Origin: Naegleria gruberi
Lineage: Eukaryota
Length of the DNA: 64,000 nt
Assembly (NCBI GenBank): GCA_000004985.1
Contig: GG738885.1
Strand: one strand, 5' to 3'
Part shown: positions 1 through 63,630 of the stretch, piece by piece
Layout of the letters: each line of letters opens with the position of its first letter
Position numbering within the stretch: position 1 is the first letter of the stretch
Made by a program: the position numbers and the translations under genes
The notes under the pieces: generated by a model
Told to the model about the DNA's origin: nothing
Databases searched by the model: none
The model's input: the letters and a program-made list of their open reading frames with translations, nothing else

Positions 1-487
1 TCCCAAACCCAAACCCAAACCCAAACCCAAACGAAACCCAAACCCAAACCCAAACCCAAACCCAAACCCAAACCCAAACCCAAAACCCAAACCCAAACCC
101 AAACCCAAACCCAAACCCAAACCCAAACCCAAACCCAAACCCAAACCCAAACCCAAACCCAAACCCAAACCCAAACCCAAACCCAAACCCAAACCCAAAC
201 CCAAACCCAAACCCAAACCCAAACCCAAACCCAAACCCAAACCCAAACCCAAACCCAAACCCAAAACCCAAACCCAAACCCAAACCCAAACCCAAACCCA
301 ACCCAAACCCAAACCCAAACCCAAACCCAAACCCAAACCCAAACCCAAACCCAAACCCAAACCCAAACCCAAACCCAAACCCAAACCCAAACCCAAACCC
401 AAACCCAAACCCAAACCTAAAAACCCAAACCTAAAAACCCAAACCTAAAAACCCAAACCTAAAAACCCAAACCTAAAAACCTAAAAA
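1..487. repeat. Terminal telomeric repeat array (CCCAAA)n on the + strand, i.e. G-strand (TTTGGG)n running toward the left end. It becomes degenerate (CCCAAACCTAAAAA units) at the inner edge, ~420-487.
   Basis: Directly visible perfect hexamer CCCAAA repeated ~70 times from position 1, with occasional CCCAAAA/CCCAACC variants. The C-rich strand reads 5'->3' at the left edge, which is the correct polarity for a chromosome end. Confidence 0.85.
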
Positions 488-499
488 ATATTTAAGTCC

Positions 500-938
500 A
501 GACCCAATGTTTCAAAGTTCAAACCCTAGGCCAATTTATTGATTGTTATATCATTCGATTGTAAATGATGAGTAGAACAATGTATTATATTTAGTTTTTC
601 AATTTATAAAATATTAACTTTGTAAATAATGTAAGATTAAAAATTTGTAAAATGAAACCATAGGAAGAATGATAATTTCATAATCCTTTAATGAGATTAT
701 ATAGTCTATATCATCATTAACAATATTCATAATCAGTTTCATATAAAATTTCAAAAGTTCAAGTCTGTAGATATAAAAGTATTGAGTGAAAAGGGAAGTT
801 GTGAGGTACAATAGGTCAACTATAACTTTTGAGTTTCTCATCAAATCATATTAAATCCTGAGATGAAAATGTTCCATTTGATTAGTAAACATCGAATATC
901 AAATTTATTTTGACTTTCATATTTAGAGATTTCTTCCC
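500..938. repeat. Telomere-associated subtelomeric element, copy A (~440 bp)
   Basis: ~90% identical to 1420-1860 (copy B). A shared 3' part (atgaaaatgttccatttgat..agtaaacatcgaatatcaaatttatttt..atttagagatttcttccc) recurs at ~4241-4310. Confidence 0.7.
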
Positions 939-988
939 NNNNNNNNNNNNNNNNNNNNNNNNNNNNNNNNNNNNNNNNNNNNNNNNNN
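939..988. other. Assembly gap (50 N)
   Basis: Run of n. Confidence 0.99.
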
Positions 989-1415
989 AAACCCAAACCC
1001 AAACCCAAACCCAAACCCAAACCCAAACCCAAACCCAAACCCAAACCCAAACCCAAACCCAAACCCAAACCCAAACCCAAACCCAAACCCAAACCCAAAC
1101 CCAAACCCAAACCCAAACCCAAACCCAAACCCAAACCCAAACCCAAACCCAAACCCAAACCCAAACCCAAACCCAAACCCAAACCCAAACCCAAACCCAA
1201 ACCCAAACCCAAACCCAAACCCAAACCCAAACCCAAACCCAAACCCAAACCCAAACCCAAACCCAAACCCAAACCCAAACCCAAACCCAAACCCAAACCC
1301 AAACCCAAACCCAACCCAAACCCAAACCCAAACCCAAACCCAAACCCAAACCCAAACCCAAACCCAGAACTAAAAATAGAATTCTTCTAAACCCAACGTT
1401 CAAACCCAAACCAAA
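989..1415. repeat. Second (interstitial) telomere-type (CCCAAA)n tract, degenerate at the inner end
   Basis: Perfect CCCAAA hexamers 989-1366, then degenerate cccagaactaaaaataga..cccaaaccaaaatt. Confidence 0.85.
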
Positions 1416-1419
1416 ATTA

Positions 1420-1901
1420 TAAACTTATTCAAATATCATTAAATTTTATATCATTCGATAGCTAATGATGAGTAGAACAACATGTTATATTTAGTTTATC
1501 AATTTATAAAATATTAACTTTGTAAATAATGTCAGATTAAAATTTGTAAAATGAAACCATAGGAAGAATGATAATTTCAAAATCATTTAATGAGGTTATA
1601 TAGCCAATATCATCATTAACAACATTTATAATCACTTTCATATCAAATACAAAAGTTCAAGTCTGTAGATATAAAAGTATCAAGTGAAAAGGGAAGATGT
1701 GAGGTAAAAGAGGTCAACTATAACTTTTGAGTTTCTCATCAAAACATATTGAAACCTGATATGAAAATGTTCCATTTGATGAGTAAACATCGAATATCAA
1801 ATTTATTTTAACTTTCATATTTAGAGATTTCTTCCCTCAATCACCCATGGTCAATTGTATGAAAAGGTGGAAATCTTGAAAAAGGACCACCTATTGAAAC
1901 T
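1420..1901. repeat. Telomere-associated subtelomeric element, copy B. It extends further than copy A and runs into a gap.
   Basis: Alignable base-for-base with 500-938. Its tail ..aaaaaggaccacctattgaaact recurs at 4052-4072. Confidence 0.7.
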
Positions 1902-3491
1902 NNNNNNNNNNNNNNNNNNNNNNNNNNNNNNNNNNNNNNNNNNNNNNNNNNNNNNNNNNNNNNNNNNNNNNNNNNNNNNNNNNNNNNNNNNNNNNNNNNN
2001 NNNNNNNNNNNNNNNNNNNNNNNNNNNNNNNNNNNNNNNNNNNNNNNNNNNNNNNNNNNNNNNNNNNNNNNNNNNNNNNNNNNNNNNNNNNNNNNNNNNN
2101 NNNNNNNNNNNNNNNNNNNNNNNNNNNNNNNNNNNNNNNNNNNNNNNNNNNNNNNNNNNNNNNNNNNNNNNNNNNNNNNNNNNNNNNNNNNNNNNNNNNN
2201 NNNNNNNNNNNNNNNNNNNNNNNNNNNNNNNNNNNNNNNNNNNNNNNNNNNNNNNNNNNNNNNNNNNNNNNNNNNNNNNNNNNNNNNNNNNNNNNNNNNN
2301 NNNNNNNNNNNNNNNNNNNNNNNNNNNNNNNNNNNNNNNNNNNNNNNNNNNNNNNNNNNNNNNNNNNNNNNNNNNNNNNNNNNNNNNNNNNNNNNNNNNN
2401 NNNNNNNNNNNNNNNNNNNNNNNNNNNNNNNNNNNNNNNNNNNNNNNNNNNNNNNNNNNNNNNNNNNNNNNNNNNNNNNNNNNNNNNNNNNNNNNNNNNN
2501 NNNNNNNNNNNNNNNNNNNNNNNNNNNNNNNNNNNNNNNNNNNNNNNNNNNNNNNNNNNNNNNNNNNNNNNNNNNNNNNNNNNNNNNNNNNNNNNNNNNN
2601 NNNNNNNNNNNNNNNNNNNNNNNNNNNNNNNNNNNNNNNNNNNNNNNNNNNNNNNNNNNNNNNNNNNNNNNNNNNNNNNNNNNNNNNNNNNNNNNNNNNN
2701 NNNNNNNNNNNNNNNNNNNNNNNNNNNNNNNNNNNNNNNNNNNNNNNNNNNNNNNNNNNNNNNNNNNNNNNNNNNNNNNNNNNNNNNNNNNNNNNNNNNN
2801 NNNNNNNNNNNNNNNNNNNNNNNNNNNNNNNNNNNNNNNNNNNNNNNNNNNNNNNNNNNNNNNNNNNNNNNNNNNNNNNNNNNNNNNNNNNNNNNNNNNN
2901 NNNNNNNNNNNNNNNNNNNNNNNNNNNNNNNNNNNNNNNNNNNNNNNNNNNNNNNNNNNNNNNNNNNNNNNNNNNNNNNNNNNNNNNNNNNNNNNNNNNN
3001 NNNNNNNNNNNNNNNNNNNNNNNNNNNNNNNNNNNNNNNNNNNNNNNNNNNNNNNNNNNNNNNNNNNNNNNNNNNNNNNNNNNNNNNNNNNNNNNNNNNN
3101 NNNNNNNNNNNNNNNNNNNNNNNNNNNNNNNNNNNNNNNNNNNNNNNNNNNNNNNNNNNNNNNNNNNNNNNNNNNNNNNNNNNNNNNNNNNNNNNNNNNN
3201 NNNNNNNNNNNNNNNNNNNNNNNNNNNNNNNNNNNNNNNNNNNNNNNNNNNNNNNNNNNNNNNNNNNNNNNNNNNNNNNNNNNNNNNNNNNNNNNNNNNN
3301 NNNNNNNNNNNNNNNNNNNNNNNNNNNNNNNNNNNNNNNNNNNNNNNNNNNNNNNNNNNNNNNNNNNNNNNNNNNNNNNNNNNNNNNNNNNNNNNNNNNN
3401 NNNNNNNNNNNNNNNNNNNNNNNNNNNNNNNNNNNNNNNNNNNNNNNNNNNNNNNNNNNNNNNNNNNNNNNNNNNNNNNNNNNNNNNNNNN
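1902..3491. other. Assembly gap (1,590 N)
   Basis: Run of n. The flanking ORFs made of X are artefacts. Confidence 0.99.
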
Positions 3492-4051
3492 GCTGAACAA
3501 TACTAGATTGAAAGTTTCCAAATTACCATATGAATCTGGCAGTGATGATGATTTTAGTGAAAATATTGAATTTCACTAAAATATTACTATTATCAGATTT
3601 ATTTCCACAAATATTACTATTATAATGATGATAAATAACAATGATGATGGTTGGAAGTTGTTCCGATGATGGTTTACCAACTTGAATTTTTCCCAAGTGA
3701 AAATTAAATTCCAAATTTATAATCACAATCCAATAATAAAAACTACTACCAGTAATACTATTAGGATGATGTTGAGATGATGATGTGAAAGTTTGGTGGA
3801 TTCATGGGGTGAAATCACTCTGAAAATCACCAAAGTGTTCCCAATGTGTGTTTGGGCTGAAATATTTTTTCTTAATGGTGGAAAATAATGGAACGTGTAT
3901 TTGTTAGGTGTTATTAATACATACAAGGCAACACCAAGAACTTTTGTCCATCAAATAAGCACCCTACTATTTTCGCCTAGACATTTTAGGCTATTTTTTT
4001 TGGCCTAAATATTTTTTGCCTGTTTTTCAGGCGAAAAAAGTAGCCTAGAAC

Positions 4052-4395
4052 AGGACCACCTATTGAAACTTTACCAAAATGATATACATGATATATAATG
4101 ATATAGAATTCAATTTCATGTCCAAATAATCAGAAATGGTACCATGGGAAGGTAAATGTTGATATATTATGGATGACTTTAAGGATTGATAGGTCAGATC
4201 ATATCTATCAAATACTTCACTTTAACCAATAAAATAAACATGAAAATGTTCCATTTGATGAGTAGAGATAGAATATCAAGTTTATTTTAACTTTTATATT
4301 CACGATTTCAACTCTAACATGCCATCTGATAAACTATGGACACGGATGAATTTCTGGAAAATGACCACTTTATGAAACATTACCATCATGTTCCA
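4052..4395. repeat. Partial third copy / variant of the subtelomeric element
   Basis: Shares caggaccacctattgaaact, catgaaaatgttccatttgatgagta..atatcaa.tttattttaactt and a gaccac.ttatgaaac variant with copies A/B. Confidence 0.5.
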
Positions 4396-4598
4396 CATCT
4401 CAAATAATGTATATAATTCAGTTTTTAGACGTTTTGGTGAACATTCCATCTTTCAGTAAGGTAAAGAGTGATTTATCAAGGTTGACTTTGGAGGATCAGG
4501 AGGAAATCTTGAATATAGAGAACCAAATCCTCAATCAACAAAATACATATCAATCGATTGGAAATCATTAGTACATCTCGAAAATATAATTTATTTTA

Positions 4599-5417
4599 NN
4601 NNNNNNNNNNNNNNNNNNNNNNNNNNNNNNNNNNNNNNNNNNNNNNNNNNNNNNNNNNNNNNNNNNNNNNNNNNNNNNNNNNNNNNNNNNNNNNNNNNNN
4701 NNNNNNNNNNNNNNNNNNNNNNNNNNNNNNNNNNNNNNNNNNNNNNNNNNNNNNNNNNNNNNNNNNNNNNNNNNNNNNNNNNNNNNNNNNNNNNNNNNNN
4801 NNNNNNNNNNNNNNNNNNNNNNNNNNNNNNNNNNNNNNNNNNNNNNNNNNNNNNNNNNNNNNNNNNNNNNNNNNNNNNNNNNNNNNNNNNNNNNNNNNNN
4901 NNNNNNNNNNNNNNNNNNNNNNNNNNNNNNNNNNNNNNNNNNNNNNNNNNNNNNNNNNNNNNNNNNNNNNNNNNNNNNNNNNNNNNNNNNNNNNNNNNNN
5001 NNNNNNNNNNNNNNNNNNNNNNNNNNNNNNNNNNNNNNNNNNNNNNNNNNNNNNNNNNNNNNNNNNNNNNNNNNNNNNNNNNNNNNNNNNNNNNNNNNNN
5101 NNNNNNNNNNNNNNNNNNNNNNNNNNNNNNNNNNNNNNNNNNNNNNNNNNNNNNNNNNNNNNNNNNNNNNNNNNNNNNNNNNNNNNNNNNNNNNNNNNNN
5201 NNNNNNNNNNNNNNNNNNNNNNNNNNNNNNNNNNNNNNNNNNNNNNNNNNNNNNNNNNNNNNNNNNNNNNNNNNNNNNNNNNNNNNNNNNNNNNNNNNNN
5301 NNNNNNNNNNNNNNNNNNNNNNNNNNNNNNNNNNNNNNNNNNNNNNNNNNNNNNNNNNNNNNNNNNNNNNNNNNNNNNNNNNNNNNNNNNNNNNNNNNNN
5401 NNNNNNNNNNNNNNNNN
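4599..5417. other. Assembly gap (819 N)
   Basis: Run of n. Confidence 0.99.
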
Positions 5418-6855
5418 AAGAATATATATCAATTGTTCTTCTCATGTCAGTAATCAGTGAAGGTGACACTTCATCAACCTTAGTTTTCACATCTCAATAT
5501 CTAGACTGTCAATTCGACTGAAACTTGAAATATTACCTATCTAGATGATATAATGATGACTCTCCATAGTAACATGCATGTGAAATTGAATGTTGACACT
5601 TTTCATCTTGTTATATTTATAGAGATGGTATCCAACAGAGTCAGTTCATAATATTAAATATTGAAACTCATTCTATATGACATGTTTGATGTATAGAACG
5701 GTTTTTTATTGAATGTAATCAATTTGAAATAATTTGATGAAATTGACACTGTCAGGTCACCATTACAAGACAAATAGACCATAGTTTACATTCCATCTCA
5801 GTCATTTCAAAGAGTTATTGATTAACTCCACCACCATTATGTTTCTCACACGCTCTAGTACAATTAATATTTCAAGAGTGAGTTCTGTGGAAGACTCTGT
5901 AAGAAATAATACCATATATATAGTAATATCAATAAACTGAATTGAAGAGTTAATTCTTCTCATTTTCAAATAGATTATTCAATATAGAACAAATCTAGAT
6001 AGTTTCCAGATCATAAAAGTCAAGCTACTATATATGGTCTTTGATTAAATTTAAAAATAGACTGCCGTTGATTACTGGAATATTAATTCAAAGCTTGATG
6101 ATCAAGCTATTGATTGAAAATCAAACCGATTATTGAATATTGATCATTGAATTGGTGAATAATCACTCTTGATAATGATACATATTGAAGATTGATGCAA
6201 ATCAACGTGATTCAATCTACAAAGGTTGGTAGTTGCACCACTACGTGGCGAAACTACCCATTCCACGATGAATCAACATGTGATTCACTTCCATGCAACT
6301 CAATTTGACCGTTATAATCAATAAATCAATGAAATGTTACTTTATTAGCAATACCTATTCAATCTAATGAGTAGATTCACGTCCCAAACATTTGACTTCT
6401 CAAAGTCCATATTTCAAAAGTTAGTACTGACCTGACCTTTATATATCTATCAATATAAGAAATGAAACCATCAAATTTACATCATTAATAGATGATAAGA
6501 AATATAATCAATGATATGAATCTTCACTAAGTAATCTCTTAAATAACCCAAATAAATCAACTCTGAATCCTAACCAAACCCTTATTCAACATTCATTAGA
6601 AGAAGATAGATTCCCAGTGATATATTCTCTCTCTTTACAATTTATTATTTCAATATCTGACAAATTAATTGAGATAGAAGGTATTTCATCAGCTCATATC
6701 AAAATAGCTGGAGTTGAACTACCTTGAAAAAGAAGTCTGGAAATTTGGAAGAGTTGAAAGAAAATCCAGAGAAAAACTTCACGCTCTTGTTCATTCAACT
6801 CCAAAGTCTTATATTCAACAAGCACCAACTTTTCTCTTCAACTTACAACAATTTA

Positions 6856-9800
6856 TTAAACCAACATCCTCACAGAAATACTACCTTGACTTTGTGTAGA
6901 AGTTGTATTGGCTGATTCCTGATATGAATTCTTTGATGGTAGAGAAATCATTTGAGCACGAACAGTCATTTCTACATCATCTGAAGAATTATCCTTCTCC
7001 TCCTGTGGTCTAGTTTTTCTTCTTCTTCCACAACAGCAACAAACACACGAACCCCTACGATAAATAACACCAGCAACTAGTGCAATGAAGAAGCAAGTAA
7101 TCGAAATAAAACAGGTTCCACCAATGACTGTTGAAATAATAATGATATCCTGAGTGGTGAGATAGGTCGTATTGGCAGCTTGGAATGTTCTAAGGGAAGT
7201 ATTTTTCACAACAATCACATTAGAAATGAATAAATCTGAGAATACACAATTACAATCAGTAGTTGAAGTAGCATTATTATAACCAGAAATTGAACATGAG
7301 GAGTAATCATTTCCTAGATCAGATTGAACTCTAACACATGAATAGGAAGAAATATCAAAGATGCCATAATCATCTTTAGAAACACGAATGTGGAATGTAA
7401 CATTTTGTCTCAAACCAACAGCTGTTGTGTTGGATTGAATAGAGAAACTTGTACTAACTGGAGAAACAACTACTATTGTGGAATTTTCATCCTGTTGATT
7501 AATTAACTTTTGTACAATAATTGGAATGTTTTCCTTAACCACAACTGAATAAGTTGCAGAACCAAATGGATTACTATCACTAACAAGAATATCTGGCATG
7601 GTGATATTAACAATGTTTGCTTGGTATTTTCCGTCTGTTGAGGATGGTGAGCCAATCACTGATTGAGAAAGATATTTAACATATTCCTTATCTGCCTTTA
7701 CAATGGAAACACCACTGTTTAATACTACAGCACTTGCACTTACTGGTTCTCCTTTTACAATTGTGAGAGCAAGTTTTTCAGTGAGAGCAGAAATTTCTTC
7801 GTCTCTTGCAAATTGATCTTTCAGGTTTGTAATATTTTCAGAGGCATAGACTAGATTTTCAACAACTGACATGAAAGTTTGAGTTGTCTGAGGTGGAACA
7901 CCAACATTAGTTCTGAAATTTTGTTCCACAATATTCTCAAGAGCATTCACTGATTTTTCAATGACAACTTGCCCAATATTTTGCTCATTCTTTAACATGG
8001 TGTGAATAGCATAGACAATCATTGATGAGGTTGACTCTGAGATTGTTTCTTCTGAAGTAGTTTCAGTTGCATTGGCCAATATATCTAATAAAGTTGTTTG
8101 AATATTAGTAATGGTAGTGGCACTCTTCTCAGATTCAGGTAAAGTTTGTAACATTTGATTAGTTGAAACTATGGTATTAATTGTTTGTGAAATACTTTGA
8201 CTCGAATCACCATCTTTAACAAAGGATGACATGATTGTATTGGTTTGGGTTGTAACTTGCTGAACAATCTGTGTAATTGAAGTCACCACAACACGCATCA
8301 CAGTAACATGGTAATACATAATTCTGAATTCACCTGTTTGAGTATCAGTTAATTCAACGAATATTTTGACAGTTGTTGAATTACTGGTAGAGGAACTAGA
8401 TGATGGCAGTTTCATTGTTTTTTCTTGAGTGAGAGGAATATAAATCATGATGCCTGTATCAACATCAATATAACCTTGTTTGATTTGAATGGTATTTTGT
8501 TGATTTTGACAATTTTGACATGTGAGTGTGAAATCTGTTTGCATGGAAATACCTTCAGAAGGTGAAACAGTACATGGACATTTTTGTGGTTGAGCTGCCT
8601 TTGTGAAACTGTTAGAACTTTCAGTGGAGGCAATTTCAATTTCAGAGCTTTCACTCTTTTGGACATAGGAAGCCTTAAATTGAATGGCATGTGCAACTCC
8701 TTCTTCTAATTGTTTGGAGTTTACAATAATTGCACTTTGTTCATTCTTATTTACAACTTGAATGTTTTCTGAAGTTGGTGAAATAGTAGTAATTGTGGTT
8801 AAAGAATTTGAAGCATAGGATTTGCTTGTGAAACTTTCTGAAACAACACCATTGTCAATCTTCCATTGAGACTTGACAGAAACTGAAGAATCAGTTAAAT
8901 CTTGGTTTGAATGTTGAACTTCAATAGAAATTCGACCATTGCTATTGATAATTGAGTTGGAAGTTGGTTCGACTGCAATGTAAGTTACCATTGGAGGTGA
9001 ATGAACAATATTCAAAGTAATTGAGCTTGATGTTTGTCTTTCACCTTTTGTAATTGTCAAAGTCAGCTTTGGTTTTGTAAGAGTTAGTGTTGAAAAGTCT
9101 TCTTGATTGAAAATTACAATAGAGGAGTGATTCTTTGAGTATAGAGACATCTTATCAAGAATTCCATCACCACAATACCCATTAGTTTCAGAGTTAATAC
9201 ACGTCCATTTCCAAACTTCCTTTTCGTCTACATTATTTTCAGGGTCTTCACTAGAGACTTGAATAACGTTTCTCATAGATGAAGTTTCTTTTAAAGAGAG
9301 AGAAAGTGAAAGATCTGGTTGATAGGTATTAATTATAGCAAAGTCACTAATTGTAGAAGTTTGATTGGCCACAATAATGGTTACCTTAAAGACATATTTC
9401 ACTTTTCCAGAAGCAAACTTTTCAATAATCAAATTTTGATAAGAATCTTTGTGATACCTGATGGATGGTCCTTCAATTTGCTCCCAATCAACATTGATTG
9501 CTTGATCTTTCAAATAGGTTGGCAAATAGGTAACCTTCTTAATAGAAACCAACTTATCAGTTGACTTGAAAGTATTTTGCTTTTCACCAGAAATTAGCAC
9601 AGAGGCCATTTCAACATCTTGAACTTGGAATGCAATTGTTTCAATAGAACTGTATTGGGCTGATATTTGACTCTTTACCTTCAAAATCAATGTATAAACT
9701 CCCTTAATTAATGAACCTTTTTGAATCGTAATGGTTGACAGCTTATTTGATCTAATATTGTTCAAAACTGTAGATGAAATTGAGTCACCTTGAATATCCC

Positions 9801-12800
9801 AAATATATTCCAATTCCTTCTTATCTCCAGAATAACTGTTCGAACCACTAAATATTATATCTTCATAATAACTAAATAATTTCTTTGAGGATGTAACTTG
9901 GGCAACTGGTGGCTTGACTGTTTGTGAAATGATAAAGTAAATTCTAATGTAAATTTCAATAATGGTGGTAGTAATCTTTGAGAATGCATATTTGTTAACT
10001 CTAATATTACTTGATGCTGTTAAACTAAAATCATAATCGAATTGAATCTTAAAATTACCATTTGCCTTATCAGTCCAGAAACATTTTGGCTCTGTACCAA
10101 GCAATTGCAAATCATCAGCGTGAATCAATTTGGAGCATGGAACTGTATTTGCCGTGTATGAAGGTGGAGCAAATAATTTGAGGGTAACTCCATCAAATAG
10201 TTCATTAATTTGAGCGTAAATTTCATTAATATAGGTAGAGTTGAATGATCCAAAGTATGTTGCACAATCACTTCCAAAGTAGCCATTCATACAATCATTA
10301 CAAGAAATTCCATTCCAGTAGCCATTATCTCTATCTTGATAGCAAGAGCATTTACCAGTAATATCACAATTACCATGACCATTACAAGTTGTTTGACCAT
10401 TACAATATATATCACAATTTGGCCCATAGTAATTAGTCTTACACTTTTCACAAATAAATCCATCAAAATTACCTGTACAAACACAAGTATTGTTGCTTCC
10501 ACAAGATCCACCATTCAAACAAGTTGAGACGGTACAAGATCTCTCAGTACATGTTGGACCAGTGTAGGCAGGATGACATGTATTACAATCAGATCCATAA
10601 TAATGACCATTTACATCATCATTAACACATGAACAAGTATTGACATCTACACATTGACCATGTCCTGAACAAACATTAGAGCTACTCTTTGAAATAGAAT
10701 TACAATCAAATTGATCACACTTTTCACCATAGTATCCTGAATTACATATGCATCCTGCTACGCCACTTGTAGAATTGATAAAACATTTACCATGATTTGA
10801 ACAAACTCTAAAATCAGTACTTGAGTAATAATCTTCAACGCCATTATAAATACCTCTACAGAGTAAGTTTTCACAAGAATCGCCTGTAATCTTGACTCCA
10901 GAAATTGACAAGCAGGAACACTTATCAATATCTAAACAAGTACCTCTTCCTGAACAAACCTTTGCATCTGTAGAAGAAATGCCATAACAAGTTTTATCTT
11001 GACAGGCTTGACCTCCGTATCCGAACTGACATGTGCATTTTCCATCACTGGAACATTTACCCTTTCCACTGCAAACAGTTGGATCATCTTGTCTCTTTCC
11101 ATTGCAACTTGTAATATTGCATTTATATCCAAAGAATCCATTTGAGCATTTACATAAATCATTTCCAATACATTCACCATTTCCTGAACAAACTACCTTA
11201 GTTTCCAAACTGGAAATACCAAAACAGTCGAAACTCAAAGTGGTTGTAATTTCTTGCACTGTGGTGATATTTCTAATGACAAGCAAATTATCAATAGCGA
11301 GCTCAGTAAATTGGCAATTACATTTCACAGTAGAAGTTTGCTCATCATAACTTGCAGTACATTGCTTACCATTCAACGACATATCAGATTCTACACCAAC
11401 ACAAGAATATGTGTAAGTAATATTGGTTTGTGGTGGTAATAATGGTAGTTCTTCTACTGACATTTCAACGGTAACATTCTTTGAACTCAATTCATCCAAA
11501 ATTTGACTTGTAACGGTTGTCACATTTTCAACAATGGAGAAGCTTGTACTCACAGAGGACACAACTTCAACAGTGGTGGTAGTGGTAAGTGAGGTTTTAA
11601 TATTTTGAACAATTGTTGTTACAGAGCTGGAAATTGTGGAATCGACAAGCATTGCAGTATTTTCCTCTATTGTCACAGAATAGGTCATTGATGTGAAGTG
11701 ATTATCTTTAGACATAGATTCAATAGCTGGAATGCTGATATTTACAGAAACATCATTTCCAGAAGTGGAAATTGTAGAGTTTGAAAAGTCTGTCAAGTAA
11801 ACCTTGTCAACTACGACAGTTAAGGTTGATGTCTGTAAAATAACAGGATCTGCACTCACAGGTTGTTCAATTACAATGGAGGTAGCAAGATTTTTTGTAA
11901 GAGATGAAACCTTCTCCAAGCTATTGAACTGGGTATTAGTGTTTGTAATATTTTCAATGTTTGTGTAGAGAGTTTCAATAACAGTCAGGAAAGTTTTAGT
12001 CGTTTCTGTTGTTATTTCTACTTGACTCTTTGTAGCTTGTTCAATTGTATTATCCAAAATGGAAATTGATTTATCAATCACGACTGGGTCAAGATTTACT
12101 TCATTCTTTACGATTGATTGAGCAGCATAGACAACCAATGATGTAGTAGTTGCTGTGATAGTTTCAGATATTGTTTCTGTTACAGTTTCCAAAGTATTTA
12201 AAAGATTAGTTTGAATATTTGTAACTAAAGTTGAGCGCTTAGCAGCTTCAGGTAAAGTTTGCAACATTTGATTGATTGAAACTATGGTATTAACAGTTTG
12301 TGAAATACCTTGACTAGAATCACCATCTCTATTGAAATTAGAAATAATTTCACTTGTTTGATTTCTGACTTGTTGAATAACATCAGTCATTGAAGTGGCT
12401 TCAACAGTAGCAACAGTAACATTAGTGTACATCATCCTAGATTCTCCTGTCTTTGTATCAGTTAATTCAATAAACAAGGTCATGGTTTCATTTCTTTGAG
12501 TAGTCAATTGAGAATCTGTAGAAACCAATGCAGGAATTCTCATCACATTGTCTTCATTGAGTGGAACTGGAATTTTAGTATTTGTTTCCTTATCAATATA
12601 ACCTTGTGTAATTTCAATACTGTTTTGTTCGTTTTGACAATTTTGACATGTGAGTGTGAAATCAGTTTGCATGGAAACACCATTCGAAGGTGAAACAAAA
12701 CATGGACATTTTTGTGGTTGAGTTGCCTTTGCGAAATTTGTTGAACTTTCAGTTGACGCAATTTCAATTACTTCTGGAGAGCCATCAATCAAGTTGGATT

Positions 12801-15800
12801 CATTCTTTTGGATATACGAAACTTTCAATTGAATGGAGTGGTCAACTAATTCTTCTAAACCTGCTGCATTAATGATAATTGCACTTTGCTCATTCTTATT
12901 CACAACTTGAATGCTGCTGGACGCTGAGGTCACGGTAGTGGTTGTGGTAATTTGAGAAGTTGTGGTCGATTGCAATGTTGAGGTTTCACTTTGTGAAATT
13001 CCAGTTTCGTCAACTTTCCATTCAGTTTTTACAGAAATGGTAGTATCTGTCAAATCTTGTGAAGATTTTTGAACTTCAATTGAAATCTTATCATTACTAT
13101 TGACAACTTTTGTTGCTACTGGCGAAATTCCAATAATACTAAGAATTGGAGGAGGATGAACAATATTCAAAGTAATGGAACATGAAGCCTTTCTTTCTCC
13201 TTTTGTAATTGTTAAAGTCAACTTTGGTTTTGTAAGAGTTAGAATTGAAAAGTCAGTATAGTTTGCATTTACTACAGCAGCACGATTCTTAGAGTAGAGA
13301 GCTAACTTATCTGTAATACCATCACCACAATAACCATCTGTTTCAGAATTAATACACGACCATTGCCATAACTCAGTTTCGTCTGTGTTGTTTTCTGGAT
13401 CTTGATAATTGACTTGAATTGTTGATGAATAATTAGTCACACTCTTCAATGAAAGATAAAGTGAGAGTTCAGGTTGTTCAGTGTTAATTATCACATAATC
13501 ACTTGATGATAAACTTGAATTTTGTGCAGCTGTAATAGTAATCTTGAAAACGAATTTCCACTTTCCCTTTATGAAACTGTCAATGATCAAATTATTGTAA
13601 GCGTCCTTCTTGAAAGAAAGGGATGGACCTTCAAGTTGTTCCCACTCAATGCTCACAGATGAACCACTTATATAATCTGGAATGGTTGTTGTCTTTTTCA
13701 CAAGTACCAACTTTTCAGTTGACTTGTAAGTTGTTTCCTTATTTCCTGATACAGACACTGAAGGAACGGCATATCCCTGAATTTGGAAACTGAAACTTTC
13801 TTTTGAACTCACTTCATTAGTAACCTTACTTCTCACAATTAATAAAACCTTATAAACTCCAGGAAGTAAATAACCCTTATCAATCTTAATAGATGGTAAC
13901 TTGTTTGCTTGAACCTTGTTTTTAACAATTGCTGGAATGTTATTTCCTTGAATATCCCAAGTATAATCCAATTCCTTCTTATCTCCAGAATAACTGTTAG
14001 TACCACTAAATGCCAAATCCTCGGTTGTGGAATAAACTTTCTTTGTGGATTTAACTTTGGCTACTGGAGGTATTACAGTCTTGGAAAGAATAAAGAAAAC
14101 GGATATGTAATATTCATTGAGAATGGTTGTAGTCGTTGAGAAAATGTAACTATTCAATCTGAAACTGTTACTGCCAGATGACAAATCAAAATCATTATCG
14201 AAATCAAATTGAATGGTAAAGATACCATTTGCCTTATCGGTCCAGAAACATTTAGGTTCTGATCCAAATAATGAAAAATCATCTGGATGAATAAGTTTCG
14301 AACATGTGACCGTATTTGCAGTATAAGTAGACGGAGCAATCAACTTGAATGTAATTGCGTCATAGTAATCAGAAACCTGAGCATAAATATTATCAACTAG
14401 AGTTGAATTGTAAGAACCAACATAGGTCAAACACTTAGTTCCATAATAATTATTTCTACAATAGGCGCATGAAGTTCCATTCCAGTAACCATTGGAGGTA
14501 TCTACATAACATGAACACTTGCCAGCACTTGTGCAACTCCCATGACTATTACAAAATGTTTTAGGATTACAATAAATATCACAATTAGATCCGTATTGAT
14601 AGGTTTTACAACTTTCACAAAGTAGTCCAGTAAAGTTTCCAACACAATTACAAATATTATTGACACATGTTCCTCCATGTAAACAGGTGGAATTGTTGCA
14701 ATATCTTGTCAAACAATTTGCACCAGAGTATGCAGGATGACATGAGCTACATGTTGATCCAGAATAGAAACCTTTAGTGCTATTACTATAACATGAACAA
14801 CTGTTAATTCCAGTGCAAGAACCATGTCCAGAACAAACATTTGTATCATTGTTGGCTAATCCATAACAATTGAATGCTCCACAGTATGTTCCGTAATATC
14901 CTGAATTACATTGACATTTACCTTCAAGAGTTGTTGCATTAATTACACACTTTCCGTGATTTGAACAAGCTCTATAATCAGTGGTAGCGAAATAATCTTC
15001 AACACCATTGTAAACTCCTCTGCAAAGTAAGTTTTCACATGTACTTCCTGTAATCTTGACATTGGTGTTATTAAATACATAACATTGACATTTGTCAACA
15101 TCAACACAAACACCTCTTCCTGAGCAAACATTTGGATCCAAAGATGTTTTACCAAAGCATGTTTTAACTTGACAATCTTTACCTCCATATCCATAAGAGC
15201 ATTGACAATGACCATCTTCAAAACATTTTCCTTTTCCACTGCAAACAGTTGGATTATCTTGTCTCTTTCCATTGCAACTTGTAACATTACATTTAGATCC
15301 AAAGAATCCATTTGAGCATTTACATAAATCATTTCCAATACATTCACCTTTTCCTGAACAAACAACTGTATCCTCAAGGCTTGAAATACCAAAACATGTG
15401 TATTCTTCCATTTCTACTACTTCTTCAATTATGGTTGTTACATTTCTAACAACTACAAGATTTGAAATTTGGAGTTGATTAAAAATACAATTACACTTGA
15501 CACTTGAAGTTGATTCATCATATTCTGCAGTACAATTGTGTGATTCGAGTGACATATTTCCTGTGTTTACACCCATACATGAATAAGAAGAAGAGAATTC
15601 AATGAAATCTCCAGAGTCAACCAACATTTCAATTGACACATTTTGAGAACTCATCAATTGGTTTGCTACTGAACTTTCTGATGTTTCCATGATTGAGAAT
15701 GATGTAATGACAGGAGAAGCAATTTGTAATGTGGTGGTGTTTGTAATATTTGTAAGAATTTGTTGCAAAATAGTTGAAGAATATTCCTCAACAACCATAG

Positions 15801-18800
15801 AGTAAGTTATTTCAACATATTCCGTTTCCATAGTTATAAATGATGGAAGGCTGATATTCACAAGAATAGTTTTGTTTACACTTTCCATTTCTGTGGTTAT
15901 GGATGAAATGACAGAGTCTGAGAGATCGGTAAAATAAATCTTGTCAACTTGGATAGATAAAGAAGAAGTTTGTAAAACAATTGGATCAGCACTCACTGTT
16001 TGCTCCTTAACAATTGAATAAGCTAGGTTTTCAGTCACATTAACCAATTGATCATAAATATTGAGTTGTTCAAGGGTTGATGTAATATTTTCAACACTAC
16101 TTTGCAAATTCTCAACAATTGACATTACAGTTTGACTTGTTTCAGTTGAAATTTGAAGATTACTCTTCACTGCTTGATCAACTACTTCATTCAAAATAGA
16201 AATTGATTTATCAGTAACTACTGGAACAATAATTTCATCGCTCTTAATCACAGAATAAACAGCATAAACAACCATTGATGAAGTTGACTCAATTGAGGTT
16301 TCCACTCTTGTAGTTTCCACAGCACTTGCAAGTGTACTAAGAAGTTGAGTTTGAATTTTAGTAATTGTTTCAGAATCTTGATGTTGAACTTGTGGTAAAC
16401 TTTGCAACAATTGACTTGTTGAAACGATTGTATTAACAGTTTGTGAAATACTTTCAATTGGATTACCATCTTGAATGATAGCTGAAATGATTTCGGTTGT
16501 TTGATTGGAGACCTGTTGCCAAATCTCTTCGGTTGTGTTTACCACAACTGTTGTCACTGTTATATTTGTATACATGGTTCTTGATTCTCCAGATTCTGTA
16601 TCAGTCAATTCAACAAACCATTTAACAGGTGCAGCTTGTGGAGTATTTGAACTAGAGGATACCACAGCAGGGATTTTAACAGTATCCTCCTCTGAGATTG
16701 GTACTTGAATTTTGATTCCAGTTTCACTATCCACATATCCTTGGGTGATTTCGATGGTATTTTGTTCATTTTGACAATTGACACATGAAACTTTGAATTC
16801 TGTTTCCATAGAAACACCATTAGAAGGTGTAATGCTACATGGACATTTTTGTGGTTGAGTTGCCTTTGTAATTGTTGTTGAACTTTCGGTAGAAGCAATT
16901 TCAATTTCTTCTGGAATACCATTAACAATATTAGATTCATTAGTTTGAACATACGAAACTTTCAATGCAATAGTTTTTTCAGTTCCTTCATCAAACTCCC
17001 TGGCATCAATAATAATAGCGCTTTGTGTATTCTTACTAACAACTTGAACATAACTTGAAGTTGATAACATTGTTGTGGTTGTTGAAAAAGAATCTGTTGA
17101 TTCTATTCTTGTAGTTTCACTCTCAGAAACAATGGAAGTGTCAATCTTCCATTCAGTTTTAATAGAAAGTGATGAATCTGATAAATCCTGTTTTGAGTGA
17201 GAGACTTCAATGGAAAACTTCTCATCACTATTGACAACAGATTTAAAGTCTGGAGAAATGTCAATAATATTGAGAATTGGAGGTAAATGAACAATATTCA
17301 AAGTAATGGAACATGAAGCCTTTCTTTCTCCTTTTCTAATGCTTAGAGTAAAAGTTGGTTTCTGTAAAGTTGATAAGGAAAAGTCAGATTTGTCAACTAT
17401 GAAGAGAGTTGAATGGTTCTTGGAATGGAAAGACATTTTGTCTACAACACCATCTCCACAATAACCATCTGTTTCAGAATTAATACACGACCATTGCCAT
17501 AATTCAGTTTCGTCTGTGTTGTTTTCTGGATCTTGATAATTGACTTGAATTGTTGATGAATAATTAGTCACACTCTTCAATGAAAGATAAAGTGAGAGTT
17601 CAGGTTGTTCAGTGTTAATTATCACATAATCACTTGATGATAAACTTGAATTTTTTTCTGGAGTAATTGAAATTTTGAAAACATATTTAAAAGCTCCCTT
17701 AGTGAAACTTTCAATAATCAAATTATTGTAAATATCCTTCTTAAAATCAACATTCGGACCTTCAATTTGTTGCCATTCAATATTCATAGTTTCATTCTTC
17801 AAATAATCTGGAATTGTAGTTGTCTTTTTGATATGAACCGGCTTTTCAGTTGACTTTTGCCTAATTTTCTTACTTCCGTAAATACTAACTGAAGGAACTT
17901 GATATTCTAGAATTTGTAATGTGAAAATATTAATCAAACTCACTTCACTAGTTACTGTACTTCTCACAACTAGTGTCAACTTATAAATTCCCAATTTTAG
18001 CAAACCCTTATCAATCTTAATGGTTGCTTGCTTGTTGGATTTTATGAAATTTTCAACAGTAGAATTGATAGAGTTTCCCTCAATGCTCCAAGTATAATCC
18101 AGTTCTTTCCTATCTCCAGAGAAGGAGTCTGATCCACTAAATATCATATCTTCTGTTTCACTATAAATTCTTTTTGATGACTTCACATCAGCAACTGGAC
18201 TTTTTACAGTATTTGGAGGCATTAAATAAATAATAGTGTCATCTACGATGGTTCTTGTAGAAAAAGCTCCAAGTTTGTTCAATCTTCTTGTAAGTGTAGT
18301 AAATAGATTTCTGTTCACTCTAAAATGGTTTCCTATGACTGACGAAGAGTTTAGAGTAAAATCATAATCGAATTGAATCTTGAAATCACCATTTTCCTTA
18401 TCAATCCAGAAACATTTAGGTTCTGTGCCGAATAATGGTTGATCATCGATGTAAATGAGTTTTGAACATGGAACAGTGTTTGGTAAATAGGAAGGTGGAG
18501 CAAATAGCTTAAATATCACACCATCAAAGAAATCAGTAACTTGAGAATAAATTTCATTGACATAGGTAGAGTTGAATGATTCAAAATGGGCAAAACAATC
18601 GCTTCCAAAGTAACCATTTTGGCATGAGCTGCATGAGCTACCATTCCAGTAACCATTCTTGGTATCTGAGAAACAAATACATTGGCCATCGGATCCACAT
18701 TGGCCATGTCCATTACATGTTGATTGACTATTACAATAGACATTACATTGTGATCCATAACTATTGGATTTACAAGTTTCACAAATCAATCCAGTAAAGT

Positions 18801-21800
18801 TTCCAATACAATCACAACTATTATCAGTTCCACAAGACCCACCATTCATACAAGTTGAACCAGTACATGTTTTAACATTACAATTTGCACCAGTATATGC
18901 AGGATGGCAAGTGTTACAATCAGATCCAGAATAGAAACCATTAGTACTATCACTATAACATGAGCAGGTGTTAATTCCAACACAATCACCATGTCCTGAG
19001 CAAACATGTGAGTTATTCTTGGCAATTGAGTTGCAATTAAACATTTCACACTTGTCTCCGTAATATCCCGCAGCACAGGAACATCCTCCTGTTGAACAGT
19101 TACCGTGCTTTGAGCAAACTCTAAAATCATTGCTTGAATAAAAATCTTCAACGCCATTGTAAACTCCTTTGCAAAGTAAGTTTTCACATTCATCACCAGT
19201 AATCTTTACACTGATGCCATTTGATGAAAAACATTGACACGTGTCAATATCAACACAAACACCTCTTCCTGAGCAAACATTTGGATCCAAAGATGTTTTA
19301 CCAAAGCATGTTTTAACTTGACAATCTTGACCTCCATATCCATAAGAGCATTGACAATGTCCATCTTCAAAACATTTTCCCTTTCCACTGCAAACAGTTG
19401 GATTATCTTGTCTCTTTCCATTGCAACTTGTAACATTACATTTAGATCCAAAGAATCCATTTGAGCATTTACATAAATCATTTCCAATACATTCACCTTT
19501 TCCTGAACAAACTACTGTATCCTCAAGGCTTGAAATTCCAAAGCATTCATAAGTTTGGACTATAACAGCAGTATTCAATGAACAGTCTGCTCCAAAGTAT
19601 CCAGCTGTACAATTACAATTATTTAATGAAGGACAATCACCATGTCCACTACAGACCTGTGATGAATTATATTGAACTCCAGCACATGTGTGGAATTCAC
19701 ATTCAATTCCAAAATATCCGGCATTACATGTACATTTATCCACTTGAGAGCAATTACCACGATTTAAACAAGCGCCATTTAGACCTTTTCCAAAACAAAT
19801 TGGTGATGAACAATCTGCACCTGCCCAATTTTGATTACATGTACAATTGTTTGGAGAGTTACATTGACCATGTGAGGAACAAACTAGTGATGAGTTTGAA
19901 AGAATATTGAAACATTTAGGGAGAGCACACCAATCTCCTCCATACATAGCGTTGCATTGGCAAATACCACCCACACAAGTACCATTAGATGAACATACTG
20001 ATGGGTCATCCTTTGAAATGCCATTACATTTGAGTAGTTGACATTGGTTTCCTTCATAATTAGGAGAACAGGAACATGTATCAACACCAGAACATACCCC
20101 CCAGAACAAACTGATGTTTCGTTTGACAAAATTCCAAAACAGTTTGGATATTGACATTGTGAGCCTCCAAAGTTTGAGTTACATTGACATGAATCCAATC
20201 CAACACATGAACCATGGGAATTGCAAACAGATGAATTGTTTTGTAAAGTTCCATAACAAGTTGTAATTGAACAATTAGATCCATAATAATTTGAAGAGCA
20301 AGTACAAGAGTTGTAATCAACACATGAACCATGCTCAGAACAAACTGATGTTTCGTTTGACAAAATTCCAAAACAATATGGATATTGACATTGTGAGCCT
20401 CCATAGTTTGAGTTACATTGACAGGAGTCCAATCCAACACATGAACCATGGGAATTGCAAACAGATGAATAGTTTTGTAAAGTTCCATAACAAGTTGTAA
20501 TTGAACAATTAGATCCATAATAATTTGAAGAGCATGAGCACGAATTATAATCCATACAAGTACCATGTCCTGAACAAACACTAGAATTGGTTTTTGCTAC
20601 ATAGTAACAATCAAAAATTTCACAGTTAAATCCATAGTAATTTAAGGAGCATGAACAAGTATTAAATGTTGAACATGCACCATGTCCTGAACAAACCTGA
20701 CTTGAATTAGAATAGACTCCATTACATGTTGTTACTGAGCAATTGGCTCCATAATAATTCGATGAGCAGCTACAGGAATTATATGCTGTGCAAGTGCCCT
20801 GATTAGAACAACCAGTAGTAACAGAGTTTGAATATCCATTACATGTCCAAGAAGAACAATTTGAATTAGAATAACCAGTTGCACAGGTGCATGTGTTAAT
20901 GGCTGTGCAGGTACCATGGGAATTGCAAACTGAAATGTCATCAGATCTTTTGGAGTAACAATAGGGTAGATTACAATAACTTCCACCATAATTTGCATCA
21001 CACGTCATGTAAATTTTTCTGAGTTCATCACTTTCTGCAATTAACATCAAGTTGTTATCGCTGGCAAAAGTCAAACCTACAAGTGTATTGAACTTGGTAT
21101 TAGCCAGAGTTTCTCCATCATTATATGTTCCAGCACTATTACCAGCATATGACGTTATTGTACCAGTGTTAGCATTGGCAGTTGCAGGTGTGAAAAGTTT
21201 AAGAGCACCACTCTCAGTGTAGTATACATTACCGTTGTCGTTTACATAAAAGTCTTTGATGGTTACAGAAGAGGTCTTAATTAAGTTAGTTTAACTAGTT
21301 CAATAAAACTTACAGTAAAACGTGTTGCGACTGTTGAAGCAGTGAAAACTTTGAGATAAAACGTTGAACCGATTTGTTGAAAGTAATATATCTTTCCATC
21401 TGACGGTCTTATTGTAAAAGAAACTAAAAGAATTAAATGAAAAGAGAATATCAGATAACTTACATAGTGTTGCAATATTTGCTGATGATGATGCACCATC
21501 AGAAGTGGAGGCACCCCCTCCCAAAACAACTACAATCTTTCCAGTTGATGAGCTGATTTTGTAAATATAGTTGTCTGATGCAAAATAGATCTCACCATTG
21601 TAATATTGTAAATTTTTGGCATTCTAGAATAAAATTGGATATTCATTTCAAAGCAATAGAGAAAAAATACTTACAGTAATAGTACAAGCAGTTGGAGTGT
21701 TTCCATTAACACAATCTGATCCAGAAGCTGCGCCAGCTACTATTGTAACTAAACCCGTGCTCTTTGACAGTAATTTGAGAAAAAATCCAGGTGAATAATT

Positions 21801-25898: not shown

Positions 25899-25948
25899 TT
25901 TTTTTAATTTTCGTATTTAATTTTCGAATGTTGTACAATCTTGAAGAA

Positions 25949-61790: not shown

Positions 61791-61840
61791 NNNNNNNNNN
61801 NNNNNNNNNNNNNNNNNNNNNNNNNNNNNNNNNNNNNNNN
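61791..61840. other. Assembly gap (50 N)
   Basis: Run of n. Confidence 0.99.
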
Positions 61841-63557: not shown

Positions 63558-63630
63558 GCCCGTCTAGCTCAGTCGGTAGAGCGCAAGGCTCTTAACCTTG
63601 TGGTCGTGGGTTCGACCCCCACGGTGGGCG
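63558..63630 (+). tRNA. tRNA-Lys (anticodon CUU), 73 nt, no intron
   Basis: Manual cloverleaf. Acceptor GCCCGTC/GGTGGGC with G-U pairs; D-arm GCTC-AGTCGGTA-GAGC; anticodon stem CAAGG/CCTTG with loop CTCTTAA (anticodon CTT); variable loop TGGTC; T-arm GTGGG-TTCGACC-CCCAC; discriminator G. Confidence 0.9.

What the first reader, a model, noticed from the sequence alone, without database searches (positions are those of the whole stretch)
1..5460. Chromosome end with a TTTGGG-type telomere and a tandemly duplicated [telomere tract + ~440-bp element] module
The terminal array is a clean (CCCAAA)n, i.e. G-strand TTTGGG. That is not the common TTAGGG/TTTAGGG type; TTTGGG is otherwise best known as a Paramecium variant. 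The standard-code 13-kb ORF downstream argues against a ciliate with a reassigned code. About 440 bp further in there is a second (CCCAAA)n tract of ~430 bp, followed by a ~90%-identical second copy of the same 440-bp element. A third partial copy lies after the next gap. This looks like stepwise subtelomeric amplification or telomere healing at an internal site. Alternatively it is a mis-assembly of a telomere-associated-sequence (TAS) family: three gaps of 50, 1,590 and 819 N interrupt the region.
Basis: seen in the sequence. Interest (0 to 1): 0.5.

Follow-up and report, generated by a model that had tools for sequence, protein, structure and literature searches.

The report
Naegleria gruberi telomere and subtelomeric repeats
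This is an ordinary chromosome end of the amoeba Naegleria gruberi, carrying its already published TTTGGG telomere repeat, and the apparent "doubled telomere" rests only on two read-sized sequence pieces joined across an unsequenced gap, so it is more likely an assembly artefact than biology.

Summary
(CCCAAA)n runs from 2 to 477. A 461-bp AT-rich element follows, then a 50-N gap, then a second (AAACCC)n tract at 989-1366. After that comes a 91.5%-identical second copy of the element, and there are further gaps of 1590 and 819 N.

The organism is Naegleria gruberi, a heterolobosean that uses the standard genetic code. TTTGGG was already published in 2013 as its candidate telomere repeat, so the motif is not new.

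The two [telomere + element] modules are never joined by sequence. Each lies on its own contig of about 0.9 kb that begins in telomere repeats.

The two element copies are old paralogues. Each is closer to a third copy, found in a metagenome contig (L011), than to the other. Yet the "internal" telomere tract is cleaner than the terminal one. This rules out an old duplication at this site. It leaves two options:
- two alternative chromosome ends stacked in series by the scaffolder, which I favour at about 0.6;
- a recent capture of another chromosome end, at about 0.3.

The "third copy" is not a third module. It is a pair of degenerate ~309-bp units of the same non-coding subtelomeric repeat family. 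Interest is low.

The parts
2..477 (-). Terminal telomere tract. The G-strand (TTTGGG)n reads outwards on the minus strand. About 69 near-perfect units are followed, on the inner side, by five CCCAAACCTAAAAA variant units (~406-477).
478..938 (.). TAS1: copy 1 of the subtelomeric (telomere-associated sequence, TAS) element, non-coding. It is cut off by the end of the contig. Contig 1 is 1-938.
939..988 (.). 50-N scaffold gap. This is the only link between the two modules.
   Evidence: a second gap of exactly 50 N lies at 61791-61840
989..1366 (-). Second (TTTGGG)n tract, 63 units of which 61 are perfect. It starts exactly at the left edge of contig 2 (989-1901).
1367..1901 (.). TAS2: copy 2 of the subtelomeric element. 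1438-1836 is 91.5% identical to 538-938. The last 22 bp (1880-1901) are the start of the next ~309-bp unit.
1902..3491 (.). 1590-N scaffold gap.
3492..4048 (.). Segment X, unrelated to the TAS element. 3495-3832 is an inverted 74.5% copy of 23935-24274. X is absent from the equivalent position in L011.
4049..4598 (.). Two degenerate ~309-bp subtelomeric repeat units: A at 4049-4357 and B at 4358-4598. Together they are 91% identical to L011 1664-2213. Unit A is related to the inner part of the TAS element.
4599..5417 (.). 819-N scaffold gap.
5418..6855 (.). Unique AT-rich spacer between the subtelomeric repeats and the first gene. It has no ORF above 63 aa and no repeat match.
6856..20157 (-). 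First gene inward from the end: a 4433-aa ORF with teneurin-type EGF, REJ and PKD domains. It sets the genetic code and, together with its neighbours, the organism.

Best explanation
The window starts at the left end of a scaffold of the Naegleria gruberi reference assembly. From my own knowledge, that assembly is a JGI Sanger whole-genome shotgun.

Tract 1 is a genuine telomerase-type telomere, (TTTGGG)n on the outward 3' strand. It would be made by a telomerase whose RNA template encodes TTTGGG; that step is inferred. Next to it lies one member of a multi-copy, non-coding subtelomeric family. The family consists of a ~130-bp junction segment next to the telomere, followed by degenerate ~309-bp units.

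The 'second module' is most likely not physically in tandem. Contig 1 (938 bp) and contig 2 (913 bp) each look exactly like the sequence read inwards from a cloned chromosome terminus: telomere repeats from the first base, then the subtelomeric element. They represent two different ends, either paralogous chromosome ends or diverged haplotypes. Their mate pairs land in shared subtelomeric repeats. The scaffolder therefore placed them one after the other with a minimal placeholder gap.

Shown: the anatomy, the organism, the divergence pattern, the lack of sequence continuity, and the existence of further family members.
Inferred: the scaffolding mechanism and the telomerase template.
For: Telomere identity:
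- The arrays occur only at the window end and have the correct polarity.
- The organism is N. gruberi.
- The same motif was reported, from a search of genome assemblies for terminally placed repeats, as this species' candidate telomere.

Stacking artefact:
- (a) The two modules lie on separate contigs, 1-938 and 989-1901, joined only by 50 N. The next contig (3492-4598) is also only 1.1 kb. A second gap of exactly 50 N at 61791-61840 suggests that 50 is a floor or placeholder value.
- (b) Contig 2 begins in telomere repeats with nothing unique to its left. Contig 1 ends in the element with no telomere repeats after it.
- (c) The supposedly internal tract is as long as the terminal one and purer: 61 of 63 perfect units against 63 of 72 parsed units. 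The flanking elements differ by 8.5%. At that divergence, 16-32 changes would be expected in 378 bp, and the Poisson probability of <=2 changes (about what is seen: 2 imperfect units) is at most 1.5e-5.
- (d) TAS1 and TAS2 are the most distant pair at 91.5%. TAS1-L011 is 94.0% and TAS2-L011 is 92.8%. They share only 8 exclusive sites, against 18 and 13 for the other pairings. They are therefore old paralogues, not a local duplicate.
- (e) In the only contiguous external copy, L011, the element runs straight into units A and B. The scaffold instead puts a 1590-N gap plus the unrelated 557-bp segment X between them. So this terminal 5.4 kb is a patchwork of repeat-family contigs.
- (f) A truly internalised copy, L011, keeps only a 15-bp telomere relic.
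Against: - Contig 1 ends in ...TTCTTCCC and contig 2 begins AAACCC. With a zero gap the join would be a seamless, in-phase telomere repeat. Only 3 of 461 positions in TAS1 end a CCC, so this is about 0.7% by chance. However, the CCC is native to the element: TAS2 and L011 have the same CCC followed by TCAA. It also lies 4 nt before a stretch where the family members diverge strongly, which is a natural place for a contig to break.
- The scaffolder must have had some mate-pair support for the order and orientation.
- L011 shows that telomere-plus-element junctions do become buried in this lineage.
- Reads and mate pairs were not available to me, so the artefact is inferred, not demonstrated.
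Confidence: 0.6

Rival explanations
1. The structure is real: telomere - TAS1 - telomere - TAS2 on one chromosome. It was made recently when a shortened telomere at this end invaded another chromosome end at a GGG/CCC microhomology and copied it to its tip. This would be break-induced replication or 'telomere capture', as in yeast Y' amplification. It would bury a still-pristine telomere tract under a paralogous element and a new telomere.
For: - The CCC|AAACCC join across the 50-N gap is in phase, about 0.7% by chance.
- The scaffold places both modules in the same orientation.
- A recent capture explains both the purity of tract 2 and the old divergence of the two elements.
- L011 shows an element copy with a decayed telomere relic and 1.1 kb of other DNA outside it, so ends do become buried in this lineage.
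Against: - No read-level continuity exists.
- With a tract of only 378 bp, ordinary Sanger reads should have bridged TAS1 to TAS2 and merged the contigs.
- Contig 1 carries no telomere repeats after position 938, although reads starting in TAS1 would have run into tract 2 (inference about coverage).
- The CCC is native to the element.
- The terminal scaffold is demonstrably not collinear with the one contiguous copy.
Confidence: 0.3
2. The module was duplicated in tandem at this site, or a telomere was healed at an internal break, and the two copies then diverged to 91.5%.
For: Only the apparent tandem layout in the assembly.
Against: - The internal tract shows <=2 changes where 16-32 are expected at the elements' divergence.
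- Each copy is closer to L011, from another sample, than to its neighbour.
- Telomerase healing cannot create the join between the inner end of TAS1 and the outer end of tract 2 (established polarity of telomerase addition).
Confidence: 0.03
3. The element is the end of a telomere-targeting mobile element, like bdelloid Athena or Bombyx TRAS/SART. Repeated insertion into, or addition onto, telomere repeats would give alternating telomere and element.
For: - Telomere and element alternate.
- The family is multi-copy.
- L011 shows a copy with a telomere stub away from a contig end.
Against: - There is no ORF above 67 aa in 3492-4598 or 5418-6855, and no ORF of 40 aa or more lies wholly within either TAS copy.
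- The one conserved 54-aa ORF has dN/dS 0.93.
- There is no RNA family hit.
- The element decays into degenerate ~309-bp tandem units, which is typical of satellite-like subtelomeric DNA.
- However, 2.4 kb of the region is unsequenced gap.
Confidence: 0.03
4. The CCCAAA arrays are an internal satellite rather than telomeres.
For: I could not confirm that window position 1 is a physical chromosome end. No experimental proof (Bal31, TRAP) exists in the literature I could search.
Against: - The array begins at base 2 of the window, has telomere polarity, and is absent from the other 62.6 kb.
- A published survey that judged candidate repeats by their position and orientation in genome assemblies named TTTGGG as the N. 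gruberi candidate.
Confidence: 0.03

Closest known systems
Candidate TTTGGG telomere of Naegleria gruberi (Fulneckova et al. 2013, Genome Biol Evol, PMC3622300)
   Same: Same organism, same motif, and the same kind of evidence (terminal arrays in the public assembly). This window is almost certainly one of the scaffold ends on which that call was based.
   Different: That paper names only the motif. It does not describe the subtelomeric element, the 14-bp variant units, or the doubled layout. It also states that experimental confirmation of terminal position is still needed.
Paramecium TT(T/G)GGG telomeres
   Same: TTTGGG units occur there too (own knowledge).
   Different: Paramecium mixes TTGGGG and TTTGGG and uses a reassigned genetic code. 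Here the array is uniform TTTGGG in a heterolobosean with the standard code.
Saccharomyces cerevisiae Y' elements in tandem, separated by internal TG1-3 tracts
   Same: The layout telomere - element - telomere - element is what the scaffold suggests. Recombination or BIR-based capture would be the mechanism if it is real.
   Different: Y' is 5-7 kb and encodes a helicase, and its internal tracts are short at about 50-130 bp (own knowledge). Here the element is non-coding and about 0.5 kb, the internal tract is at least 378 bp and pristine, and continuity is not shown.
Stacking of alternative haplotype or paralogue contigs in series by mate-pair scaffolders in Sanger-era assemblies
   Same: Two similar read-length contigs compete for the same position. 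They are placed head to tail in the same orientation with a minimal N gap.
   Different: Not demonstrated here at read level; it is inferred from the anatomy only.
Interstitial telomeric sequences (ITS)
   Same: L011 shows a decayed 15-bp relic at the element junction, which is typical of an old ITS.
   Different: Tract 2 of the window is long, 99% pure, and has no sequenced left flank. It does not behave like a typical old ITS.

Membership tests
Telomerase-type telomere repeat array | Tandem array of a short T/G-rich unit | tested here: met
   TRF finds period 6, with 78 and 63 copies at 92% and 99% matches.
Telomerase-type telomere repeat array | Lies at the end of the sequence, with the G-rich strand running 5'->3' outwards | tested here: met
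   The array starts at base 2 of the window with the C-rich strand on top. No further 12-mer of the repeat occurs in 1401-64000 on either strand. Caveat: I cannot verify that the window start is the scaffold or chromosome end.
Telomerase-type telomere repeat array | Same repeat at the other chromosome ends of the organism | not testable with these tools
The literature reports TTTGGG as the candidate repeat from a search of the assembly that weighed position and orientation.
Telomerase-type telomere repeat array | Physical terminal position (Bal31 sensitivity), telomerase activity, and a TER template matching TTTGGG | not testable with these tools
   I found no experimental report. No telomerase RNA hit in the window.
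Subtelomeric / telomere-associated repeat family (TAS) | Several diverged copies, each directly abutting telomere repeats | tested here: met
   TAS1 and TAS2 in the window each abut a tract. L011 abuts a 15-bp relic. Pairwise identities are 91.5-94.0%.
Subtelomeric / telomere-associated repeat family (TAS) | Non-coding, often built of degenerate tandem units | tested here: met
   Among ORFs free of gap codons, none of 40 aa or more lies within either TAS copy and none in 3492-6855 exceeds 67 aa. The conserved 54-aa ORF has dN/dS 0.93. Degenerate ~309-bp units score z = 12-12.6 against shuffles. No Rfam hit.
Tandem subtelomeric modules with internal telomere tracts (yeast Y'-like) | Element - internal telomere tract - element on one continuous molecule | tested here: inconclusive
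   The left side of tract 2 is a 50-N gap and no sequence bridges it. The in-phase CCC|AAACCC join is suggestive.
Interstitial telomeric sequence (for tract 2) | Non-telomeric sequence on both sides within contiguous sequence | tested here: not met
   Contig 2 starts inside the tract at 989.
Telomere-specific retroelements (Athena/PLE, TRAS/SART, HeT-A-like) | Reverse-transcriptase or gag-type ORF in the element | tested here: not met
   Only short ORFs in the sequenced parts, with neutral substitution pattern. 2.4 kb of gaps remain unseen.

The most novel reading that the evidence does not exclude
Naegleria gruberi chromosome ends really do carry stacked [long pristine telomere tract + paralogous subtelomeric element] modules. 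These would be made by recombination or break-induced-replication capture of other ends at GGG microhomologies. Old telomeres would later decay to relics such as the 15-bp stub in L011. That would be a Y'-like, ALT-type pathway of end dynamics in a heterolobosean, alongside telomerase.
Probability: 0.25. Interest if true: 0.35.

Novelty: already known. Interest (0 to 1): 0.12.

Why it matters
It matters little beyond housekeeping. It confirms that this scaffold end of the N. gruberi reference carries the published TTTGGG candidate telomere. It also gives a first description of the adjoining non-coding subtelomeric repeat family: a junction segment plus ~309-bp units. That description is useful for anyone finishing Naegleria chromosome ends or designing terminal probes.

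It also flags the terminal 5.4 kb of this scaffold as an unreliable patchwork. It should not be used as evidence for internal telomere tracts.

If the stacked structure turned out to be real, it would be a modest first example of recombination-based end capture in Heterolobosea.

Tried and rejected
- Finding this locus in other assemblies by exact-protein look-up. I tried the 4433-aa ORF, P0001 and the 381-aa DUF4116 ORF. None is on record, so N. gruberi is not in that index.
- Supplementary table S5 of Fulneckova 2013 is not held. The N. gruberi genome paper and the N. lovaniensis paper are not held either.
- The N. fowleri Nanopore paper does not mention telomeres. The 2025 Nat Genet paper made a Nanopore N. 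gruberi assembly but says nothing about its ends.
- The metagenome scan with a 20-mer gave 17 hits. Sixteen are chance matches of 20-25 nt; only L011 is a homologue.
- Scans of GTDB genomes and IMG/VR for a 25-mer of the element found nothing.
- I could not find out what sample VFQN01031297.1 comes from.
- Rfam gave nothing in 1-7000. In L011 it gave one sub-threshold miRNA-model hit, which I take as chance. There is no tRNA in L011.
- Rejected: a ciliate origin; an old duplication at this site; telomerase 'healing' as the origin of the outer join; a protein-coding or mobile-element nature for the element.
Full report
**1. What is in the sequence**

The first 6.9 kb of the window read as follows.
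- (CCCAAA)n runs from base 2 to about 477.
- A 461-bp AT-rich element (TAS1, for telomere-associated sequence) lies at 478-938.
- 50 N follow at 939-988.
- (AAACCC)n lies at 989-1366.
- A second copy of the element (TAS2) lies at 1367-1901.
- 1590 N follow at 1902-3491.
- A 1107-bp contig lies at 3492-4598.
- 819 N follow at 4599-5417.
- Unique sequence then runs on to the first gene.

Tandem Repeats Finder gives 78 copies at 92% matches (score 806) for the first array and 63 copies at 99% (score 749) for the second. The 12-mer CCCAAACCCAAA occurs 121 times before position 1400 and never afterwards, and its reverse complement never occurs. The arrays are therefore confined to the window end. 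Their polarity is that of a telomere at a left end: the G-rich strand runs 5'->3' outwards.

Tract 1 ends on its inner side in five 14-bp variant units, CCCAAACCTAAAAA. Tract 2 does not. The two elements are 91.5% identical over 401 bp. They differ at the telomere junction, where TAS2 lacks a 37-bp stretch.

**2. Whose genome is it**

Neighbouring ORFs carry DUF4116, BTB + pentapeptide + TLDc, and RGS domains. The TLDc ORF hits 'hypothetical protein NAEGRDRAFT_80657 [Naegleria gruberi]' at 90% identity and 99% coverage, on a 362,555-bp contig. The next hits are also from N. gruberi.

The 4433-aa ORF at 6856-20157(-) has teneurin-type EGF, REJ and PKD domains under the standard code.

So this is the heterolobosean amoeboflagellate N. 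gruberi, not a ciliate. The N-gap structure fits the JGI Sanger shotgun assembly (own knowledge).

**3. Is the motif new?**

No. Fulneckova et al. 2013 (PMC3622300) searched 143 genome assemblies for arrays of telomere-type repeats, weighing their position and orientation. [quoted passage not shown] They note that experimental proof of terminal position is still needed.

No other paper in the library links Naegleria with TTTGGG. I found no description of Naegleria subtelomeres.

**4. Anatomy of the subtelomere**

The 'third partial copy' shares only a 71-bp core (86-89%) and a 22-bp motif with the element. Gapped alignment shows more.
- 4049-4357 (unit A) and 4358-4598 (unit B) are degenerate tandem units with 309-bp spacing, z = 12.6 against shuffles.
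- The inner part of TAS2 (1552-1831) aligns with unit A (4064-4309), z = 12.
- TAS2 ends at the gap in the same 22-mer that starts unit A.

So the element is a ~130-bp junction segment plus the first unit of a degenerate ~309-bp repeat.

It is non-coding.
- Among ORFs free of gap codons, none of 40 aa or more lies within either TAS copy, and none in 3492-6855 exceeds 67 aa.
- The one 54-aa ORF conserved in a homologue has dN/dS 0.93.
- There is no Rfam hit.

**5. An outside copy**

A scan of metagenome contigs with a 20-mer conserved in all three window copies gave 16 chance hits and one true homologue, L011 (VFQN01031297.1, 2627 bp). Its matches to the window are:
- L011 1149-1620 matches window 463-938 (TAS1 plus the last 15 bp of tract 1) at 92.2%.
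- L011 1218-1685 matches TAS2 at 91.7%.
- L011 1664-2213 matches units A and B (4049-4598) at 91.1%.

Three things follow.

(i) The family has more members than the two in the window.

(ii) In L011 the element runs straight into units A and B. The scaffold instead inserts a 1590-N gap and an unrelated 557-bp segment X (3492-4048) between them. X is itself an inverted 74.5% copy of 23935-24274. The terminal 5.4 kb of the scaffold is therefore not collinear with the only contiguous copy available.

(iii) In L011 the element is preceded by only a 15-bp relic (AACCAAACCCAAACC), and then by 1.1 kb of unrelated DNA. This is what a truly buried telomere junction looks like in this lineage.

**6. Are the two modules really in tandem?**

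No sequence joins them. The contigs are 1-938, 989-1901 and 3492-4598, each about 0.9-1.1 kb, which is about one Sanger read long. The first two begin in telomere repeats. A second gap of exactly 50 N at 61791-61840 suggests that 50 is a placeholder or floor value.

Over the common 404 alignment columns, the pairwise figures are:

| Pair | Identity | Sites shared only by this pair |
|---|---|---|
| TAS1-TAS2 | 91.5% | 8 |
| TAS1-L011 | 94.0% | 18 |
| TAS2-L011 | 92.8% | 13 |

The two window copies are the most distant pair. They are old paralogues, not a local duplicate.

Tract 2, however, has only 2 imperfect units in 63. It is cleaner than tract 1, which has 63 perfect units among 72 parsed. 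At the elements' divergence, 16-32 changes would be expected in 378 bp, and the probability of two or fewer is at most 1.5e-5.

An old duplication at this site followed by divergence is therefore excluded. Telomerase 'healing' cannot make the join between the inner end of TAS1 and the outer end of tract 2, because telomerase only adds repeats outwards (established knowledge).

**7. The two surviving readings**

(a) *Stacking artefact, which I favour at about 0.6.* Contigs 1 and 2 are two alternative chromosome ends, either paralogous ends or diverged haplotypes. Each was read inwards from cloned termini. Their mates fall in shared subtelomeric repeats, so the scaffolder put them in series.

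This fits several observations:
- the read-length contigs;
- the clean 'internal' tract;
- the absence of any telomere repeats after 938 in contig 1;
- the failure of reads to bridge a mere 378-bp tract;
- the non-collinearity with L011.

(b) *Real recent capture, at about 0.3.* A short telomere at the TAS2 end invaded another end and copied TAS1 plus its telomere, as in yeast Y' amplification by break-induced replication.

In its favour:
- Contig 1 ends in ...TTCTTCCC and contig 2 starts AAACCC, an in-phase join if the gap is zero. Only 3 of 461 positions in TAS1 end a CCC, so this is about 0.7% by chance.
- L011 shows that burial of telomere junctions happens.

Weakening this:
- The CCC is native to the element. 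TAS2 and L011 have CCC followed by TCAA.
- It lies 4 nt before a stretch where family members diverge sharply. That is a natural place for a contig to break.

A telomere-targeting mobile element and an internal satellite are each unlikely, at about 0.03.

**8. Comparison with what is known, and verdict**

The telomere is the published N. gruberi candidate motif. The element is an ordinary, previously undescribed subtelomeric (TAS-type) repeat family. The doubled layout resembles yeast Y' arrays only if it is real, and its defining feature, continuity on one molecule, could not be shown.

Existing Nanopore data for N. gruberi or the original traces would settle this in an afternoon.

Novelty: already known for the motif. 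The repeat family is a routine new member of a known kind. Interest is low (0.12).

The most novel reading that remains open is recombination-based stacking of chromosome ends in Naegleria. I put its probability at about 0.25, with modest interest if true.

Noticed in passing
window 6856-21074 (-): A giant surface-protein-like gene: a 4433-aa ORF with teneurin-type EGF, REJ and PKD domains and three internal repeats of about 1400 aa. An upstream EGF-repeat ORF (19884-21074) overlaps it in another frame next to a G6 run at about 20095-20100. This suggests an intron, a frameshift/pseudogene or a sequencing error. A 234-bp tandem repeat at 20100-20579 encodes the EGF units.
   Followed up: partly
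window 3495-3832 and 23935-24274: An inverted duplication, 74.5% identical over about 340 bp. One copy sits in the subtelomeric patchwork and the other is 20 kb inside. Both carry a short ORF with a hydrophobic stretch (IFRV.S..E....L..HLNII.IV). Its nature is unknown.
   Followed up: partly
L011 (VFQN01031297.1) 1-2627: A metagenome contig with a 92-94% copy of the Naegleria subtelomeric element. It is preceded by only a 15-bp telomere relic and by 1.1 kb of unrelated DNA, and followed directly by units A and B plus 414 bp not present in the window (possibly the content of the 819-N gap). The source sample could not be identified.
   Followed up: partly
window 406-477: Five tandem 14-bp variant units, CCCAAACCTAAAAA (G-strand TTTTTAGGTTTGGG), lie at the inner edge of tract 1 only. 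They are absent from the TAS2 junction and reduced to one partial unit in L011.
   Followed up: no
window 24753-28218, 32902-34407, 49792-51666, 53181-54869: Gene content typical of N. gruberi expansions: a DUF4116 repeat protein, a BTB + pentapeptide + TLDc gene apparently split into two ORFs by an intron (the database model is 685 aa), and three RGS-domain ORFs within 22 kb.
   Followed up: no
window 63558-63630 (+): A tRNA-Lys(CTT) gene, the only Rfam or ARAGORN hit in the 64 kb.
   Followed up: yes
window 29390-29469 and 61791-61840: Two further assembly gaps of 80 N and 50 N. The repeated value of exactly 50 N suggests a minimum placeholder gap size in this assembly.
   Followed up: partly
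window 4407-4571 (+) and L011 2022-2186 (+): A 54-aa ATG-to-stop ORF is preserved in both copies of unit B. It has 20 nucleotide and 14 amino-acid differences and dN/dS 0.93, so it is most likely preserved by chance and not a gene.
   Followed up: yes
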